Position numbers and translations under genes: made by a program
Notes under the pieces: model-generated
What the model saw: the letters and a program-made list of their open reading frames with translations, nothing else
Database searches by the model: none
What the model was told of the DNA's origin: nothing
IMG/VR virus record: IMGVR_UViG_3300006790_000003
Location: 1-53,449 of that record
Length of the DNA stretch: 53,449 bases
Reading direction: 5' to 3' (one strand)
Source of the DNA: a virus
Lineage: Duplodnaviria; Caudoviricetes
Shown: piece by piece, positions 6,489 through 15,278 of the stretch
Layout of the letters: every line of letters begins with the position of its first letter
How positions within the stretch are numbered: the stretch's first letter is position 1

Positions 6489-9400
6489 TTAACATTCCGT
6501 TATAAGTTCATCTATTAATTTTTGTGAAATTTTTTCTGGAGTGTCTACTTCATTACCCCATTTAACTCTACCCATATGGTCTAATCCAGGGTAACTACCT
6601 CCAGACATAGTATCTCCATTGTTGAATATACCGCCTTTATCTTTTTGATACAAGAATAAAGAATCTCCTATCTCTTGTGCTTTTCTAAAAGATTCTATAC
6701 TTCTTAATTGCATATGTCTACCATACATACTCATACGTGTTATAACGTGTGTTGGTAGTTGTAGCTCTTTACCATTAGTAATAATATCTCTAACCATACC
6801 TACACCAAACATACTTTGCAATCTACTATATTCATCTAATTTACTAAATTCTAATTGCTCTCTCATTTTACTAGCGCTACCAGGATAGAATGCATCTACA
6901 AGTTCCGCTTTACTATGTCCTGTTGCAATTTCAAATGGTTCTACAAAGAATGAATGTTCTACATCTTTACCTGTAGCTTCATTCAATGCTTTAACATCTG
7001 TTTCTTTTCCGTGTAATCTATTGTATACATATTCATAACTTCTACCTAGACCTTTTACAAATGCATCTACTTGGTAGGTGTTAAACTTAATCATAGAACT
7101 AGTATTTGATTGTGAGTCTATCATATATCCTAGTCCTAAATTAATAAACTTTTCTACATTTTTTGTAGTAGGAGCAAAAAAGAAGTTTCCATTGTAATTT
7201 ACTAATTTACTTGTATTCATATCAGGTGTCATTAATCTTAACATAAACCAAGTTTGCTGTTGAGCATCTAGACCTTGTAAGAAGCTATCTATTTCTTTGT
7301 AAAACCAGTCTTTAATTTCTTTTTCTGTAGTCCATTTTACATTTCTTTTATCAAAATATTCTTTCCAAGCAACGCCATAGTTCTTTTTAATTTCTCTAAC
7401 CTTAGATTCAATATATTTATATTGTCCTTCATTTTTAGAAAATCCTATTTCTGAACCTAGTCTATATCCATAGAATCCAAAACCTTCCATAAGAGCTAAT
7501 GTATTAATCATATCAGAATCTCTTACAGTTTCTACTGGTATTCCATTTTCTATAAAATCTTTTTCAACTTTATTTTCAATTTCTTTGAACTCTTCTTTTG
7601 TTAGTGAGTCTTTTTTTAATTTCTTTTTTGTTTCAAATATTTCTGACCTAATTTTTGCATCTCTAATTGCTTCAAAATCTTTGTTTGTAATTAATTGTCC
7701 TTTTTTATCTTTAGTAGGTTTTGTAATTACTAATTCTTTTAGAATTTTTTCTTTAGCATATTCCAATTTTTTAATTTGTCTATTATTGTAGTTGTATGAA
7801 TTATAATGTCCTTGTCCTTTGATAGTAGCTTGTTGACGGCGACTTCTTTTCAATTTATCTATTCTATTTTGAATTTCATTTGCTACCTTTAATGCTTTAA
7901 CATCATCTTTCCACACTTTATTAAATTCTTGAATTGCACTATCCATATCTTTTAAAGGTCTATTAGTTAAATCTGATATTTCACTTTCAAAAGCATTTGT
8001 TTTTGCGCCATCTTTACTACCTACAGGTCTAAACTGAATGTTTTTAATATGCATAACTTCAGACAATACTCTATCGTGGTGCATATAATTTTCATTTGAT
8101 TTGCTTGTATTTGTTAAACGAGCATCTTTATTAAATCCACCAAAATAATCTGCTTGATAATCCCAACTTTTACCATTTAATTTATTTGCATAAATTTCTG
8201 CACGATTCATAGAATAATTGAAGTTTTCTGCTTCAGCTACTAACTCTCTAAATCCTACTCTTTGAGCTTCACCATCTTTATAAATCTTATTAGATAATTT
8301 TAAAATACTTTCATATGGACGAATTAATGCTTTGGTAATTATTTCTCTATCTTTTGTATCTATTTTAGCATTTTCTAATCTTGACAATTCAGCAGTTTCA
8401 ATATCTTTTGTTTTTCCTTTATAGGTAACATTTTTTAATTTAGCTTGTACAAAAAATCCGTCTTTTGCATTAAAGAATATATCATCCATAATACTCTGTT
8501 TATCGCTAAACTTGTTAATATCGTATCCATTTTCATAGTCTAGTATTGCCTGGTTATAGTCTGCAATCTTTTGATATACTTTCTTTAAATCAGCACCTTC
8601 TCTAATAGTGATATATCTTTTTGAACCTTTTTCACCAAATTCAAATACAATACGTTCTGATTTACCAGTTTCGCCATTAATAAAATGTTGTTTTTCTGTA
8701 GTTTTATTACTTAAGAAATATTGTACAATTCTATTAGCATTCATTAATGAACCACGTAAATATTGAGCATTTTGCTCGTATGCCATATATTGTTGAATAC
8801 TTTCAGGCGTATTTTTTAACTTATCATAATTCATTTGTCCAGGTGTTTTTTCTAACGGTTGTGAATCTTGTATCATTTCACGACCTTTAACATATTCCTT
8901 CATTACATTATTATGTGCATTCCACCAATAATTTACTGTGTCAATATCAAAGTCTCCTTCAGCCGCTCTTTTTACATCTACGCTATTTAAGTTAAACTGA
9001 TTAGACATATCTTTACTTAAAAATCCTTTTAGCCCTACAATCATTACACTACTTGGTTTAGTATGTGGATTACGCTCTACAGCTAATGCTACTTGGTATT
9101 CGTTTTTAGGTAAAGATTTATACACCGCTTGTTGCAATTCAGCCAATGTAGAGTTTTGATTAATACCTTCTAGTTCTAAGGTTTCTTTAATAACTTTATT
9201 TTTTGGGTCAAATACATCAATAACTTTATCATAATTTCCTTTTACTCTTTTAATTAAATGTACGGTACCTTTTCTTTTTTTACCCCAATCAATAGATTTT
9301 AAACCATCTGCAGATGGCAACTCAGCTTCACCATAGTTGTATATTTTACCTTCTACAATTAATGTGTTTTTTAATCGGTTTCCAAGATATACATCCCCTA

Positions 9401-15278: not shown

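What the first reader, a model, noticed from the sequence alone, without database searches (positions are those of the whole stretch)
6489..15278. Hidden virion-packaged RNA polymerase (DFDID type) in a 53-kb podophage
Seen: the 2929-aa protein has VERNPH (R2069) 40 aa before EGDFDID (aa 2109-2113). Upstream, in order, are DVNGITFVS, GGIKPII and TSASK. Known: two-barrel RNAPs carry RxP...DxDxD, the crAss-like phi14:2 virion RNAP uses DFDID, and the related RNAi RdRPs have DG...S, GGxKG and SxxK in this order. Inference: this is an ejected single-chain RNAP fused to an N-terminal G/A-rich hydrophobic ejection region, in a genome far smaller than and organised unlike typical crAss-like phages.
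Basis: partly seen in the sequence, partly recalled or inferred. Interest (0 to 1): 0.9.

Follow-up and report, generated by a model that had tools for sequence, protein, structure and literature searches.

The report
Hidden virion RNA polymerase, marine phage
A 2,929-residue unannotated protein in a complete 53-kb marine phage genome carries a crAss-phage/RNAi-type two-barrel RNA polymerase core, and it probably travels in the virion to start early transcription.

Summary
ORF 6489-15278(-) encodes 2,929 aa, and every quoted motif sits at the stated residue. One DxDxD is no more than chance (0.70 expected). The weight comes from conservation: D[FYH]D[IL]D, ERxP, GGIKP and FTSASK hold in 27/27 proteins and 28/28 viral loci.

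An AlphaFold model of aa 1550-2400 (pLDDT 83.9) best matches phi14:2 gp66 (Foldseek E 1.4e-10). It also matches QDE-1/RDR2 (Z 16-17). A profile-profile comparison with the crAss polymerase core gives P 2.3e-5, against 0.09-0.63 for four controls.

The family has 286 representative clusters, mostly ~2.7-3.4 kaa. All members are unnamed, none is in a cultured phage, and none is in 185,579 species genomes. TerL, portal and capsid proteins are not crAss-type.

Virion delivery is inferred, not shown.

New here: each giant has exactly one cysteine, at its C-terminus. The conserved ~900-aa downstream protein has one, at its N-terminus. That gene is split by a 2-nt gap in this genome. The crassvirus cargo proteins gp67/gp66/gp65 and crAss001 gp47/gp50/gp49 follow the same rule, and fused forms lack the junction cysteines. 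This suggests disulfide-chained cargo.

Verdict: a new variant of a known kind.

The parts
6489..15278 (-). Giant ORF of 2,929 aa: a single-chain two-barrel RNA polymerase with long flanking regions
10632..15278 (-). N-terminal region, aa 1-1549. It is conserved within the family, and aa 1-620 are predicted mostly helical. No homology to gp66, gp67 or gp65 was detected
14859..15098 (-). G/A-rich segment, aa 61-140 (34% Gly+Ala). It contains the most hydrophobic 19-mer of the protein (aa 113-131, Kyte-Doolittle 1.51)
   Evidence: invariant G111, G115, A117, G119 and F120
14169..14408 (-). Second G/A-rich conserved segment, aa 291-370 (26% Gly+Ala)
8079..10631 (-). Catalytic core, aa 1550-2400: two predicted beta-barrel regions joined by a helical connector
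   Evidence: AF2 model with pLDDT 83.9 and pTM 0.83; Foldseek and VIA matches; HHalign to the crAss core
10119..10145 (-). DVNGITFVS, aa 1712-1720, in the first barrel region (S1711 near-invariant)
10041..10061 (-). GGIKPII, aa 1740-1746, with invariant K1743 and P1744
9915..9929 (-). TSASK, aa 1784-1788, with invariant S1785 and K1788
9063..9080 (-). VERNPH, aa 2067-2072, with invariant R2069 and P2071. HHalign pairs it with YRIPNQ of gp66
8940..8954 (-). DFDID, aa 2109-2113: the putative Mg-binding triad, invariant as D[FYH]D[IL]D. HHalign pairs it with gp66 DFDID 1361-1365
6492..8078 (-). C-terminal region, aa 2401-2929
6492..6494 (-). Codon of C2929, the last residue and the only cysteine in the protein. 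A sole C-terminal cysteine is invariant across the family
5061..6488 (-). N-terminal piece (475 aa) of the conserved ~900-aa partner gene. Its only cysteine is residue 3 (codon 6480-6482)
3788..5122 (-). C-terminal piece of the same partner gene, read in another frame. A 2-nt gap relative to L002, L003 and L004 lies between window positions 5087 and 5088
15282..21543 (-). Six upstream co-oriented ORFs (526, 399, 99, 454, 170 and 410 aa) with no family hit. They are conserved next to the giant gene in the closer relatives
43813..53449 (+). Rightward replication/regulatory module, continuing at 1-3720. It includes an HTH protein, Sak SSAP, a methyltransferase and a DnaB-like helicase. This is the presumed early template; that role is an inference

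Best explanation
The 2,929-aa ORF encodes a single-chain 'two-barrel' (double-psi beta-barrel) DNA-dependent RNA polymerase. It belongs to the clade that holds the crassvirus virion polymerase (phi14:2 gp66) and the eukaryotic RNAi polymerases (QDE-1/RDR).

The catalytic core is aa ~1550-2400. The first barrel region carries invariant K1743 and K1788. A helical connector follows. The second barrel region carries invariant R2069-x-P2071 and the Mg-binding triad D2109/D2111/D2113.

The gene is the second-to-last gene of the long virion-gene strand, followed only by its partner gene. Most likely (inferred) the protein is made late, packed into the particle and ejected with the DNA. It would then transcribe the rightward replication/regulatory genes without the host polymerase, and host RNAP would read the rest.

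The protein works with the product of the adjacent conserved ~900-aa gene. The two may be joined by one disulfide between their sole, terminal cysteines.

Shown here: the fold prediction, the motif conservation, the remote homology, the gene context and the cysteine pattern. Inferred: catalytic activity, packaging, ejection, the choice of template and the disulfide.
For: Fold. The AF2 model of aa 1550-2400 has pLDDT 83.9 and pTM 0.83. In Foldseek against the PDB, rank 1 is 6vr4_A (phi14:2 virion RNAP, E 1.4e-10, 823 columns). QDE-1 and RDR2 follow at 8e-7 to 1e-5, then Pol I/II/III and archaeal largest subunits at ~1e-4. In VIA-align, RDR2 and QDE-1 score Z 16-17 over 397-463 aligned residues. 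P23-45-type gp64/gp62 score Z ~14. gp66 scores Z 10.9 with 615 aligned residues, pairing model 1-845 with gp66 856-1792. In BFVD, two unnamed viral proteins score E 7e-47 and 4.5e-35, then crAss-like phage proteins score ~1e-12.

Sequence. HHalign of the family core against a 57-sequence crAss RNAP core gives score 56.6, P 2.3e-5, probability 76% and 454 columns. It pairs ERNPHTKPSS with YRIPNQGQSS and DFDID with DFDID. Four controls (reversed target, and the family's N, middle and C regions) score 17-25 with P 0.09-0.63. Position 4 of the triad is I or L in 27/27 proteins. The gp66 preprint gives I/V at that position for crAss polymerases and Gly for all other studied RNAPs.

Conservation. 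54 of the 63 near-invariant columns lie in aa 1595-2336. All 28 viral loci keep the triad.

Context. The gene lies 3 nt after the upstream virion-strand ORF and abuts the next ORF. No other polymerase was found among the ORFs scanned.

Cysteines. The protein has one Cys in 2,929 aa, against 56 Cys in 10,394 aa in the other proteins of the genome. The ejected N4/DEV polymerases are reported to lack cysteine (PMC11445570, section 16).

Known relative. gp66 is packaged and transcribes early genes in a rifampicin-resistant way (bioRxiv 10.1101/2020.03.07.982082, passages).
Against: No experiment or proteome shows that the protein is in virions.

Ordinary searches see nothing. Pfam, PHROGs, phmmer and hmmsearch against PDB sequences, and tblastn against 50,697 phage records gave no significant hit. 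The profile against the single gp66 sequence gave nothing. The full-length profile-profile comparison is weak (probability 12.5%, P 0.0023).

By Z-score, gp66 (10.9) ranks below QDE-1/RDR2 (16-17). 'Closest to crAss' therefore depends on the measure used.

Residue-level structural equivalence of the lysines and of RxP could not be checked, because no model coordinates were available to scripts.

The N-terminal model is poor (pLDDT 60.6, pTM 0.33), and no segment reaches a usual transmembrane hydropathy.

No shared promoter motif was found. Sigma-70-like sites in the rightward module are no more frequent than in shuffles (57 against 48.9 +/- 6.5), so nothing points to the template.

The partner gene is interrupted in this genome.
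Confidence: 0.72

Rival explanations
1. It is a real two-barrel RNA polymerase but is not packaged. It would be made inside the cell and transcribe middle or late genes, as P23-45 gp64 or T7 RNAP do, while the host polymerase starts the infection.
For: VIA-align also matches the non-virion P23-45-type polymerases (8f72_B Z 14.1, 8f5m_A Z 13.8). No packaging evidence exists. Sigma-70-like sites do occur in the rightward module.
Against: The gene is second to last in the virion-gene strand and is packed tightly between virion-strand ORFs. It is 2.9 kaa, about three times the catalytic core. Cysteine is purged except for one terminal residue, as in the virion cargo proteins of phi14:2 and crAss001. 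The promoter count does not exceed that of shuffled sequence.
Confidence: 0.12
2. It is delivered by the virion, but as a tail-internal or tape-measure-like protein that carries a polymerase, as in P23-45 gp96, rather than as capsid cargo of a short-tailed phage.
For: The flanks are long and helical, with Gly/Ala-rich hydrophobic stretches. The fold is similar to the P23-45-type polymerases. The tail type is not established. Chaban et al. 2024 (PMC10770324, sections read) show that such a fusion exists.
Against: No tail tube, terminator or chaperone marker was found. The portal matches a PHROG whose weak relatives include P22-like portals. The polymerase sits in the middle of the chain, not at the N-terminus. 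The best matches are gp66 and QDE-1, not gp64.
Confidence: 0.08
3. The two-barrel enzyme serves replication, for example by making primers on single-stranded DNA, or it copies RNA. It would not be an early-gene transcriptase.
For: No DNA polymerase or primase was recognised in the genome. Only a DnaB-like helicase, Sak SSAP and an exonuclease were found. gp66 and QDE-1 prefer single-stranded DNA templates in vitro (preprint passages).
Against: Its position in the virion operon, its giant size and the cargo-type cysteine pattern all argue against this. The closest characterised relative is an early-gene transcriptase.
Confidence: 0.05
4. It is a structural or ejection protein whose polymerase-like motifs are a chance resemblance or an inactive relic.
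For: One DxDxD is expected by chance (0.70). No family model recognises the protein.
Against: The triad, RxP and both lysines are invariant down to ~18% identity. The model is confident and matches polymerases specifically, and the controls are flat.
Confidence: 0.03

Closest known systems
Virion RNA polymerase of crass-like phages (Cellulophaga phage phi14:2 gp66, PDB 6VR4; crAss001 gp50)
   Same: - It is a single chain with two barrels and a helical connector.
- The triad is DFDID-type, with Ile/Leu rather than Gly at position 4.
- It is the best Foldseek match (E 1.4e-10) and has the longest structural alignment (615 residues).
- Profile-profile P is 2.3e-5, and RxP and the triad align.
- It is a giant gene at the end of the virion-gene strand.
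- Terminal-only cysteines are paired with those of the neighbouring cargo gene.
   Different: - No HMM- or BLAST-level similarity was found.
- The N- and C-terminal regions and the partner protein show no detectable homology to gp66 flanks, gp67 or gp65.
- The host genome is 53 kb rather than ~100 kb, has no DNA polymerase, and carries TerL, portal and capsid proteins of other PHROGs.
- It forms a two-protein module rather than a three-protein one.
- It has no N-terminal cysteine.
Eukaryotic RNAi polymerases QDE-1 / RDR2 (PDB 2J7N, 7Y7S, 7W82)
   Same: These give the highest structural Z-scores (16-17, ~400-460 aligned residues spanning model residues 4-808). They share the single-chain two-barrel architecture.
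   Different: They are cellular proteins of ~1,000-1,400 aa with no giant flanks. The gp66 preprint says all previously studied RNAPs have Gly at triad position 4; here it is Ile/Leu. Sequence identity is only 12-13%.
Thermus phage P23-45 gp96 (tape-measure-fused virion RNAP) and gp64 / P74-26 gp62 (non-virion RNAP; PDB 8F72, 8F5M)
   Same: These are phage single-chain two-barrel polymerases, one of them delivered by the virion as part of a giant protein. VIA Z is ~14 to gp64/gp62 (PMC10770324).
   Different: gp96 carries DFDGD, sits at the N-terminus of a 5,002-aa tape measure, and belongs to a long-tailed phage (PMC10770324, passages). Neither gp64 nor gp96 appears among the Foldseek rows shown.
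Schitoviridae (N4-like) virion RNA polymerase gp50 / DEV gp71 with ejection proteins
   Same: The logic is the same. A ~3-3.4-kaa polymerase has its catalytic core in the middle of helical flanks. It is encoded in a conserved operon with ejection partners, and cysteine is avoided (PMC11445570 abstract and section 16; PMC13434306 abstract).
   Different: The two papers read here describe it as a single-chain RNAP; that its fold is T7-like, and so unrelated to two-barrel enzymes, is recalled and was not read or tested here. It has two partners rather than one. It is reported to have no cysteine at all, rather than one terminal cysteine.

Membership tests
Two-barrel (double-psi beta-barrel) RNA polymerase superfamily | Two barrel domains forming one active site | tested here: met
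   This rests on a predicted structure only. The model has pLDDT 83.9. It matches gp66, QDE-1, RDR2 and the largest subunits of multisubunit RNAPs. Beta-rich blocks lie at model residues 167-281 and 399-569, separated by helices 299-392.
Two-barrel (double-psi beta-barrel) RNA polymerase superfamily | DxDxD metal-binding triad in one barrel | tested here: met
   DFDID sits at 2109-2113. The three Asp are invariant in 27/27 proteins and 28/28 loci. HHalign pairs the triad with that of gp66.
Two-barrel (double-psi beta-barrel) RNA polymerase superfamily | Conserved basic residues in the other barrel that reach the active site | tested here: inconclusive
   K1743 and K1788 are invariant and lie in the first beta-rich block. 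Their spatial equivalence to the beta-subunit or QDE-1 lysines could not be measured, because no coordinates were available.
Two-barrel (double-psi beta-barrel) RNA polymerase superfamily | Template-dependent, Mg-dependent RNA synthesis | not testable with these tools
   This needs biochemistry.
Crassvirus virion RNAP family (gp66-like) | Recognisable sequence homology to gp66 orthologues | tested here: inconclusive
   The profile-profile comparison of the cores gives P 2.3e-5 and probability 76%, with flat controls. phmmer, hmmsearch, tblastn and the profile against the single sequence find nothing. The full-length profiles give probability 12.5%.
Crassvirus virion RNAP family (gp66-like) | Ile or Val at position 4 of the triad (DFD[IV]D) | tested here: met
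   Position 4 is Ile in 26 of 27 proteins and Leu in 1 of 27. The rule itself is quoted from the preprint.
Crassvirus virion RNAP family (gp66-like) | Presence in the virion | not testable with these tools
   No proteome exists for this uncultured phage. Some family members come from a <0.22 um Tara size fraction, which does not show packaging.
Crassvirus virion RNAP family (gp66-like) | Encoded by a Crassvirales genome (crAss-type TerL, portal and capsid; ~100 kb) | tested here: not met
   The window has TerL, portal and MCP in phrog_38, phrog_156 and phrog_1328. phi14:2 has phrog_6681, phrog_6547 and phrog_11589. No tblastn hit at E<=0.01 links any window ORF >=100 aa to phi14:2 38-100 kb. 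The genome is 53.3 kb.
Eukaryotic RNAi RdRP family (QDE-1/RDR) | DxDGD triad with Gly at position 4, in a cellular protein | tested here: not met
   Position 4 is Ile/Leu throughout, and the protein is viral. The fold similarity is nevertheless high, at Z 16-17.
Schitoviridae vRNAP (N4 gp50-like) | T7-like single-subunit polymerase core | tested here: inconclusive
   No T7-like or N4 polymerase appears in the rows shown by Foldseek or VIA. The lists are filled by two-barrel enzymes. Absence from a list is not a test.
Tape-measure-fused vRNAP (P23-45 gp96-like) | Polymerase fused to the tail tape measure of a long-tailed phage | tested here: inconclusive
   No tail tube, chaperone or tape-measure family hit was found in any ORF scanned. 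Many ORFs have no hit at all, and the tail type is unknown.

The most novel reading that the evidence does not exclude
The giant polymerases of this family and the three crassvirus cargo proteins may be strung head-to-tail by single disulfide bonds between their terminal cysteines. In the oxidised virion this would make a covalent 'daisy chain' that can be threaded through the tail in order. The reducing cytoplasm would then cut the links and free the polymerase.

Evidence in this family.
- Each of the 27 giants has exactly one Cys, in the last 1-7 residues.
- Of 70 further representatives >=2,600 aa, 68 have exactly one Cys, in the last 10 residues.
- The next gene's product has a Cys at residue 3-9 in 26 of 26 cases, and it is the only Cys in 25 of them.

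Evidence in crassviruses.
- phi14:2 gp67 has Cys only at its last residue, gp66 only at 3 and 2179, and gp65 only at 3.
- crAss001 gp47 has Cys only at 2339 of 2341. gp50 has Cys at 5, 1334 and 2404 of 2412. gp49 has Cys only at 5. gp47 lies on the opposite strand, so a junction signal in the mRNA cannot explain the pattern.
- Of 42 complete crAss-type polymerases, 41 have Cys at both ends and 29 have no other Cys. All 36 upstream neighbours have a sole C-terminal Cys. Of 47 downstream neighbours, 44 have an N-terminal Cys.
- Natural gp66-gp65 fusions (L046, L047) have no Cys at the internal junction; in the gp67-gp66 fusion L081, whose N-terminus is cut off, the only Cys in the part held is C-terminal.

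A co-fold of the giant's last 430 aa with the partner's first 475 aa gave only weak support: ipSAE 0.34, best of 3 controls 0.00. That mark was reached by 58 of 80 solved complexes and 2 of 110 mismatched pairs. At 0.60 or under it was reached by only 7 of those 80 and by both of the mismatches that passed. The runs agree in at least 25% of contacts, and the partner's pLDDT is at least 62.

I found no mention of this rule in the gp66 preprint (0 hits for cysteine or disulfide), in the crAss001 atlas (disulfides only in tail and portal-vertex proteins), or in three full-text searches.
Probability: 0.35. Interest if true: 0.8.

Novelty: new variant of a known kind. Interest (0 to 1): 0.72.

Why it matters
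A 2023 review calls giant two-barrel virion polymerases a hallmark of crassviruses (PMC10136315, passage). This finding places the same enzyme type in a large, unannotated family. The profile search found 286 representative clusters at E<=1e-3 and 113 at E<=1e-30.

The family sits in marine phage genomes that are about half crassvirus size (the viral contigs holding it run up to about 72 kb). In this genome no DNA polymerase was recognised and the head and packaging genes are unrelated to crass-type ones. It was absent from 50,697 deposited phage records and from 185,579 species genomes.

Three consequences follow.
- It widens the known range of polymerase-injecting phages.
- It gives a second, deeply divergent lineage for asking how the QDE-1-type RNAi polymerases arose.
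- It shows that motif reading combined with structure prediction can recover enzymes that every family library misses.

The terminal-cysteine rule, shared with crassviruses, offers a directly testable idea about how megadalton protein cargo is ordered, ejected and released.

Tried and rejected
Sequence searches with the giant protein.
- Pfam and PHROGs gave nothing above cut-off.
- phmmer and a 27-sequence profile against PDB sequences gave only chance hits at E >= 0.049.
- tblastn against deposited phages, using the whole protein and two distant family cores, gave no match.
- HHalign of the family profile against the single gp66 sequence gave nothing.

Flanking regions.
- HHalign of the family's N-terminal, middle and C-terminal regions against the crAss core, gp67-like and gp65-like alignments gave P >= 0.07, no better than reversed controls.
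- The same was true for the partner against gp65 and gp67.
- The fold of aa 1-620 had pLDDT 60.6 and pTM 0.33. That is too poor to search with, so I make no claim about its fold.

Partner pieces.
- Pfam and PHROGs gave nothing, and PDB sequences gave only chance hits.

ESM Atlas leads.
- The N-terminal 620 aa gave LPD22, LPD14, PT-TG, P22 gp16 and MuF_C at scores of 0.80-0.90, sharing 99-130 of 256 features.
- The 475-aa partner piece gave LPD39 at 0.93, a family carried by 32% of that cluster's members.
- These are weak, thematic leads only.

Promoters and RNAs.
- Sigma-70-like and terminator-like counts match those of shuffled sequence.
- The 17-nt repeat at 44195 and 44353 has no further close copies (4 matches against 4.4 expected).
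- Rfam gave 0 hits and ARAGORN found 0 tRNAs.

Host.
- No relative was found in 185,579 species genomes (82 pattern matches, none confirmed).

Not available or not run.
- The published Nature version of the gp66 paper is not held.
- Supplements are closed. Supplementary Data 3 of PMC10770324 holds alignments of 23 two-barrel RNAP families and could already include this family.
- I did not run the look-up of sequencing runs or read laying.
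Full report
THE OBSERVATION. The window is a complete virus record with a 123-nt terminal repeat, giving a 53,326-bp unit. GC content is about 28-37% across the window. ORF 6489..15278 on the minus strand encodes 2,929 aa. DFDID is the only DxDxD in the protein. On its own that is unremarkable, because 0.70 DxDxD are expected by chance at this Asp content.

CONSERVATION. A word-indexed search with aa 1650-2350 found 26 proteins at 25-76% identity. They are 1,648-3,131 aa long, and where a source names them they are 'hypothetical protein'. 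In the 27-sequence alignment, 54 of the 63 columns that are at least 96% conserved lie in aa 1595-2336. These include K1743, P1744, S1785, K1788, E2068, R2069, P2071, D2109, D2111, I2112 and D2113. The triad reads DFDID in 14 proteins, DYDID in 12 and DHDLD in 1. A scan of IMG/VR gave 28 loci. Each has a giant ORF (2,750-3,180 aa where complete) with D[FYH]D[IL]D. A profile of 21 cores (A2) run against 1.84 billion representative proteins found 286 at E<=1e-3, 210 at <=1e-10 and 113 at <=1e-30. Most of these are about 2.7-3.4 kaa, with the core at about residues 1400-2400.

WHAT ORDINARY ANNOTATION SEES. It sees nothing. Pfam and PHROGs give no family. phmmer and a profile against PDB sequences give only chance hits. 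tblastn against 50,697 deposited phage records gives no match for the protein or for two distant family cores. No relative was found in one genome from each of 185,579 prokaryote species. Several come from Tara Oceans, including a <0.22 um size fraction.

STRUCTURE. AlphaFold2 on aa 1550-2400 with the 27-row alignment gave pLDDT 83.9 and pTM 0.83. The model has beta-rich blocks at residues 167-281 and 399-569, separated by long helices at 299-392.
- In Foldseek against the PDB, phi14:2 gp66 (6vr4_A) ranks first at E 1.4e-10 over 823 columns. QDE-1 and RDR2 follow at 8e-7 to 1e-5, then the largest subunits of Pol I, II and III and of archaeal RNAP at about 1e-4.
- In VIA-align, RDR2 and QDE-1 score Z 16-17 over 397-463 aligned residues spanning model residues 4-808. 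The Thermus-phage polymerases gp64/gp62 score Z about 14. gp66 scores Z 10.9 but has the longest alignment, 615 residues, pairing model 1-845 with gp66 856-1792. Multisubunit enzymes score Z about 9.5 over the second barrel only.
- In BFVD, two unnamed viral proteins lead at E 7e-47 and 4.5e-35. They are presumably family members. Crass-like phage proteins follow at about 1e-12.

REMOTE SEQUENCE HOMOLOGY. I took 80 gp66-related loci from IMG/VR and built a 57-sequence alignment of the crAss polymerase core. HHalign of the family core against it gives score 56.6, P 2.3e-5, probability 76% and 454 columns. It pairs ERNPHTKPSS with YRIPNQGQSS and DFDID with DFDID. Four controls score 17-25 with P 0.09-0.63: the reversed target, and the family's N-terminal, middle and C-terminal regions against the same target. 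The full-length profiles align collinearly (1482-2758 with 774-2076) but weakly, at probability 12.5%. Ile/Leu at triad position 4 matches the rule that the gp66 preprint gives for crass polymerases. That preprint says all other studied RNAPs have Gly there.

GENOME CONTEXT. All on the minus strand lie TerL (39427-41001), an endolysin-like ORF, portal (35835-38060), capsid protein (33334-34887), a 1,684-aa tail fibre (23806-28860), a holin (21536-21922), six ORFs with no family hit, the giant gene, and one more gene. The giant gene starts 3 nt after the preceding ORF and abuts the next. The plus strand carries an HTH protein, Sak SSAP, a DUF932 protein, a methyltransferase and a DnaB-like helicase. 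No DNA polymerase and no second RNA polymerase was recognised. The remaining ORFs are too small to hold one.

The phage is not a recognisable crassvirus. Its TerL, portal and capsid fall in phrog_38, phrog_156 and phrog_1328. Those of phi14:2 fall in phrog_6681, phrog_6547 and phrog_11589. No window ORF of at least 100 aa hits phi14:2 38-100 kb at E<=0.01. The nearest TerL relatives in cultured phages are about 25% identical. The gross gene order does resemble that of phi14:2.

THE PARTNER GENE. The two ORFs after the giant gene (475 and 444 aa) have relatives directly downstream of the giant gene in 26 and 24 of the 28 loci. In 22 relatives with a complete copy they form one ORF of 885-951 aa. 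In the window a 2-nt gap relative to L002, L003 and L004, between positions 5087 and 5088, shifts the frame. The conserved unit is therefore the giant gene plus one ~900-aa gene, and that gene is broken or mis-assembled here. The partner has no family hit and no PDB relative, and no profile similarity to gp65 or gp67.

THE CYSTEINE RULE (NEW). P0001 has one Cys in 2,929 aa, and it is the last residue. The other 26 ORFs counted in the genome have 56 Cys in 10,394 aa. Within the family:
- All 27 family proteins have exactly one Cys, within the last 1-7 residues.
- Of 70 further representatives of at least 2,600 aa, 68 have exactly one Cys, in the last 10 residues. One has its only Cys 11 residues from the end, and one has none.
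- The partner has a Cys at residue 3-9 in 26 of 26 cases (25 loci plus the window). It is the only Cys in 25 of them. Two of the 28 loci were left out because the giant ORF runs off the contig, and one had no downstream DNA.
- Both cysteines are invariant columns in alignments A5 and A6.

Crassviruses follow the same rule.
- In phi14:2, gp67 has Cys only at its last residue, gp66 only at 3 and 2179, and gp65 only at 3.
- In crAss001, gp47 has Cys only at 2339 of 2341. gp50 has Cys at 5, 1334 and 2404 of 2412. gp49 has Cys only at 5. These three are cargo proteins found in the virion by mass spectrometry (PMC10172136, passages). gp47 lies on the opposite strand, so an mRNA junction signal cannot explain the pattern.
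- Among 66 non-identical crAss-type giant ORFs, 42 are complete. Of these, 41 have Cys at both ends and 29 have no other Cys. All 36 upstream neighbours of at least 400 aa have a sole Cys in the last 9 residues. Of 47 downstream neighbours, 44 have a Cys in the first 9 residues.
- Natural gp66-gp65 fusions (L046, L047) have no Cys at the internal junction; in the gp67-gp66 fusion L081, whose N-terminus is cut off by the locus end, the only Cys in the part held is C-terminal.

The simplest reading is a single disulfide at each junction between separate cargo chains.

A co-fold of the giant's last 430 aa with the partner's first 475 aa gave weak support only: ipSAE 0.34, best of 3 controls 0.00. 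That mark was reached by 58 of 80 solved complexes and 2 of 110 mismatched pairs. At 0.60 or under it was reached by only 7 of those 80 and by both mismatches that passed. The runs agree in at least 25% of contacts, and the partner's pLDDT is at least 62.

The ejected N4/DEV polymerases are reported to lack cysteine altogether (PMC11445570, section 16). I found no statement of the terminal-cysteine rule in the gp66 preprint, in the crAss001 atlas, or in three full-text searches.

MECHANISM. Shown here are a confident polymerase-like predicted fold, invariant catalytic-type residues, remote homology to a proven virion polymerase, a late-operon position, a conserved partner and the cargo-type cysteine pattern. 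Inferred is the following sequence. The protein is packed in the particle and ejected with or ahead of the DNA. It then transcribes the rightward early genes independently of host RNAP, as gp66 does in phi14:2, where the evidence is rifampicin-resistant early transcription and loss of activity in Asp-to-Ala mutants (preprint passages). Host RNAP would read the later genes.

No promoter motif was found. The preprint reports none for gp66 early transcripts either, so this says little. The N-terminal 1,500 aa are conserved and G/A-rich in two segments (aa 61-140, 34% Gly+Ala; aa 291-370, 26%), but their role is unknown. The model of aa 1-620 is poor (pLDDT 60.6), and the hydropathy maximum is 1.51.

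COMPARISON AND NOVELTY. The protein works like the crassvirus virion polymerase and, by analogy of logic, like the N4-type vRNAP with its ejection partners (abstracts of PMC11445570 and PMC13434306). It meets the structural and motif criteria of the two-barrel superfamily. It shares the crass-specific Ile/Val-type triad and the terminal-cysteine rule. It fails the 'encoded by a Crassvirales genome' criterion, and it is not detectable by HMM-level homology.

I rate it a new variant of a known kind. It is a separate, large, unannotated family in marine phage genomes that are mostly ~50-60 kb. One caveat applies. Chaban et al. 2024 refer to '23 RNAP families described previously', whose alignments are in a supplement I could not open. 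The published Nature version of the gp66 paper is also not held. Prior listing of this family therefore cannot be excluded. Five full-text searches for such a description found none.

Noticed in passing
window 3788-6488 (-), gap between 5087 and 5088: The conserved ~900-aa gene downstream of the giant gene is split into 475-aa and 444-aa ORFs. The cause is a 2-nt gap relative to the three closest relatives (L002, L003, L004), all of which have one ORF of 901-902 aa. It could be a real mutation or an assembly error.
   Followed up: partly
L030:2998-19201 (phi14:2 gp65, gp66, gp67); L111:1119-19723 (crAss001 gp47, gp49, gp50); L031-L110: The crassvirus cargo proteins carry cysteines almost only at their termini, paired across consecutive proteins. 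Fused forms lack the junction cysteines. I did not find this mentioned in the papers I could read.
   Followed up: yes
window 1-123 and 53327-53449: An exact 123-nt terminal repeat is present. The record is classed as having direct terminal repeats and as 100% complete.
   Followed up: yes
window 43460-45233: This is a 1.8-kb divergent region between the two strand blocks with low coding density. It holds only an 88-aa and a 59-aa ORF. A 35-nt imperfect repeat lies at 44195 and 44353. The stretch 44607-45233 is ORF-poor and includes a 15-bp-stem hairpin at 44630-44667. It had no Rfam hit. It may hold origin, promoter or non-coding RNA elements. The phi14:2 preprint reports highly transcribed early intergenic regions.
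   Followed up: partly
window 38129-38521 (-) and 21536-21922 (-): The endolysin-like gene (phrog_465, E 2.9e-35) sits between TerL and portal. It is about 16 kb away from the 3-TM holin (PF11351), which lies in the middle of the virion genes.
   Followed up: no
whole window: No DNA polymerase, primase or tRNA was recognised. The replication-related genes found are a DnaB-like helicase (1555-2904), Sak SSAP (48270-48893), an exonuclease-like ORF (41487-42437) and a DNA methyltransferase (725-1546).
   Followed up: partly
window 26525-27710 (-), inside the 1,684-aa tail-fibre ORF: Imperfect direct repeats of 58-62 nt, spaced about 500 nt and 54 nt apart, suggest repeated modules in the fibre shaft.
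   Followed up: no
L020-L028 (IMG/VR loci): A deeper branch of the family (17-21% core identity in L020, L021, L023 and L025-L028; triad DYDID) sits on contigs of up to 47-56 kb, some of them fragments. It keeps the giant-plus-partner pair and the cysteine rule, so the module is old within this virus group.
   Followed up: partly
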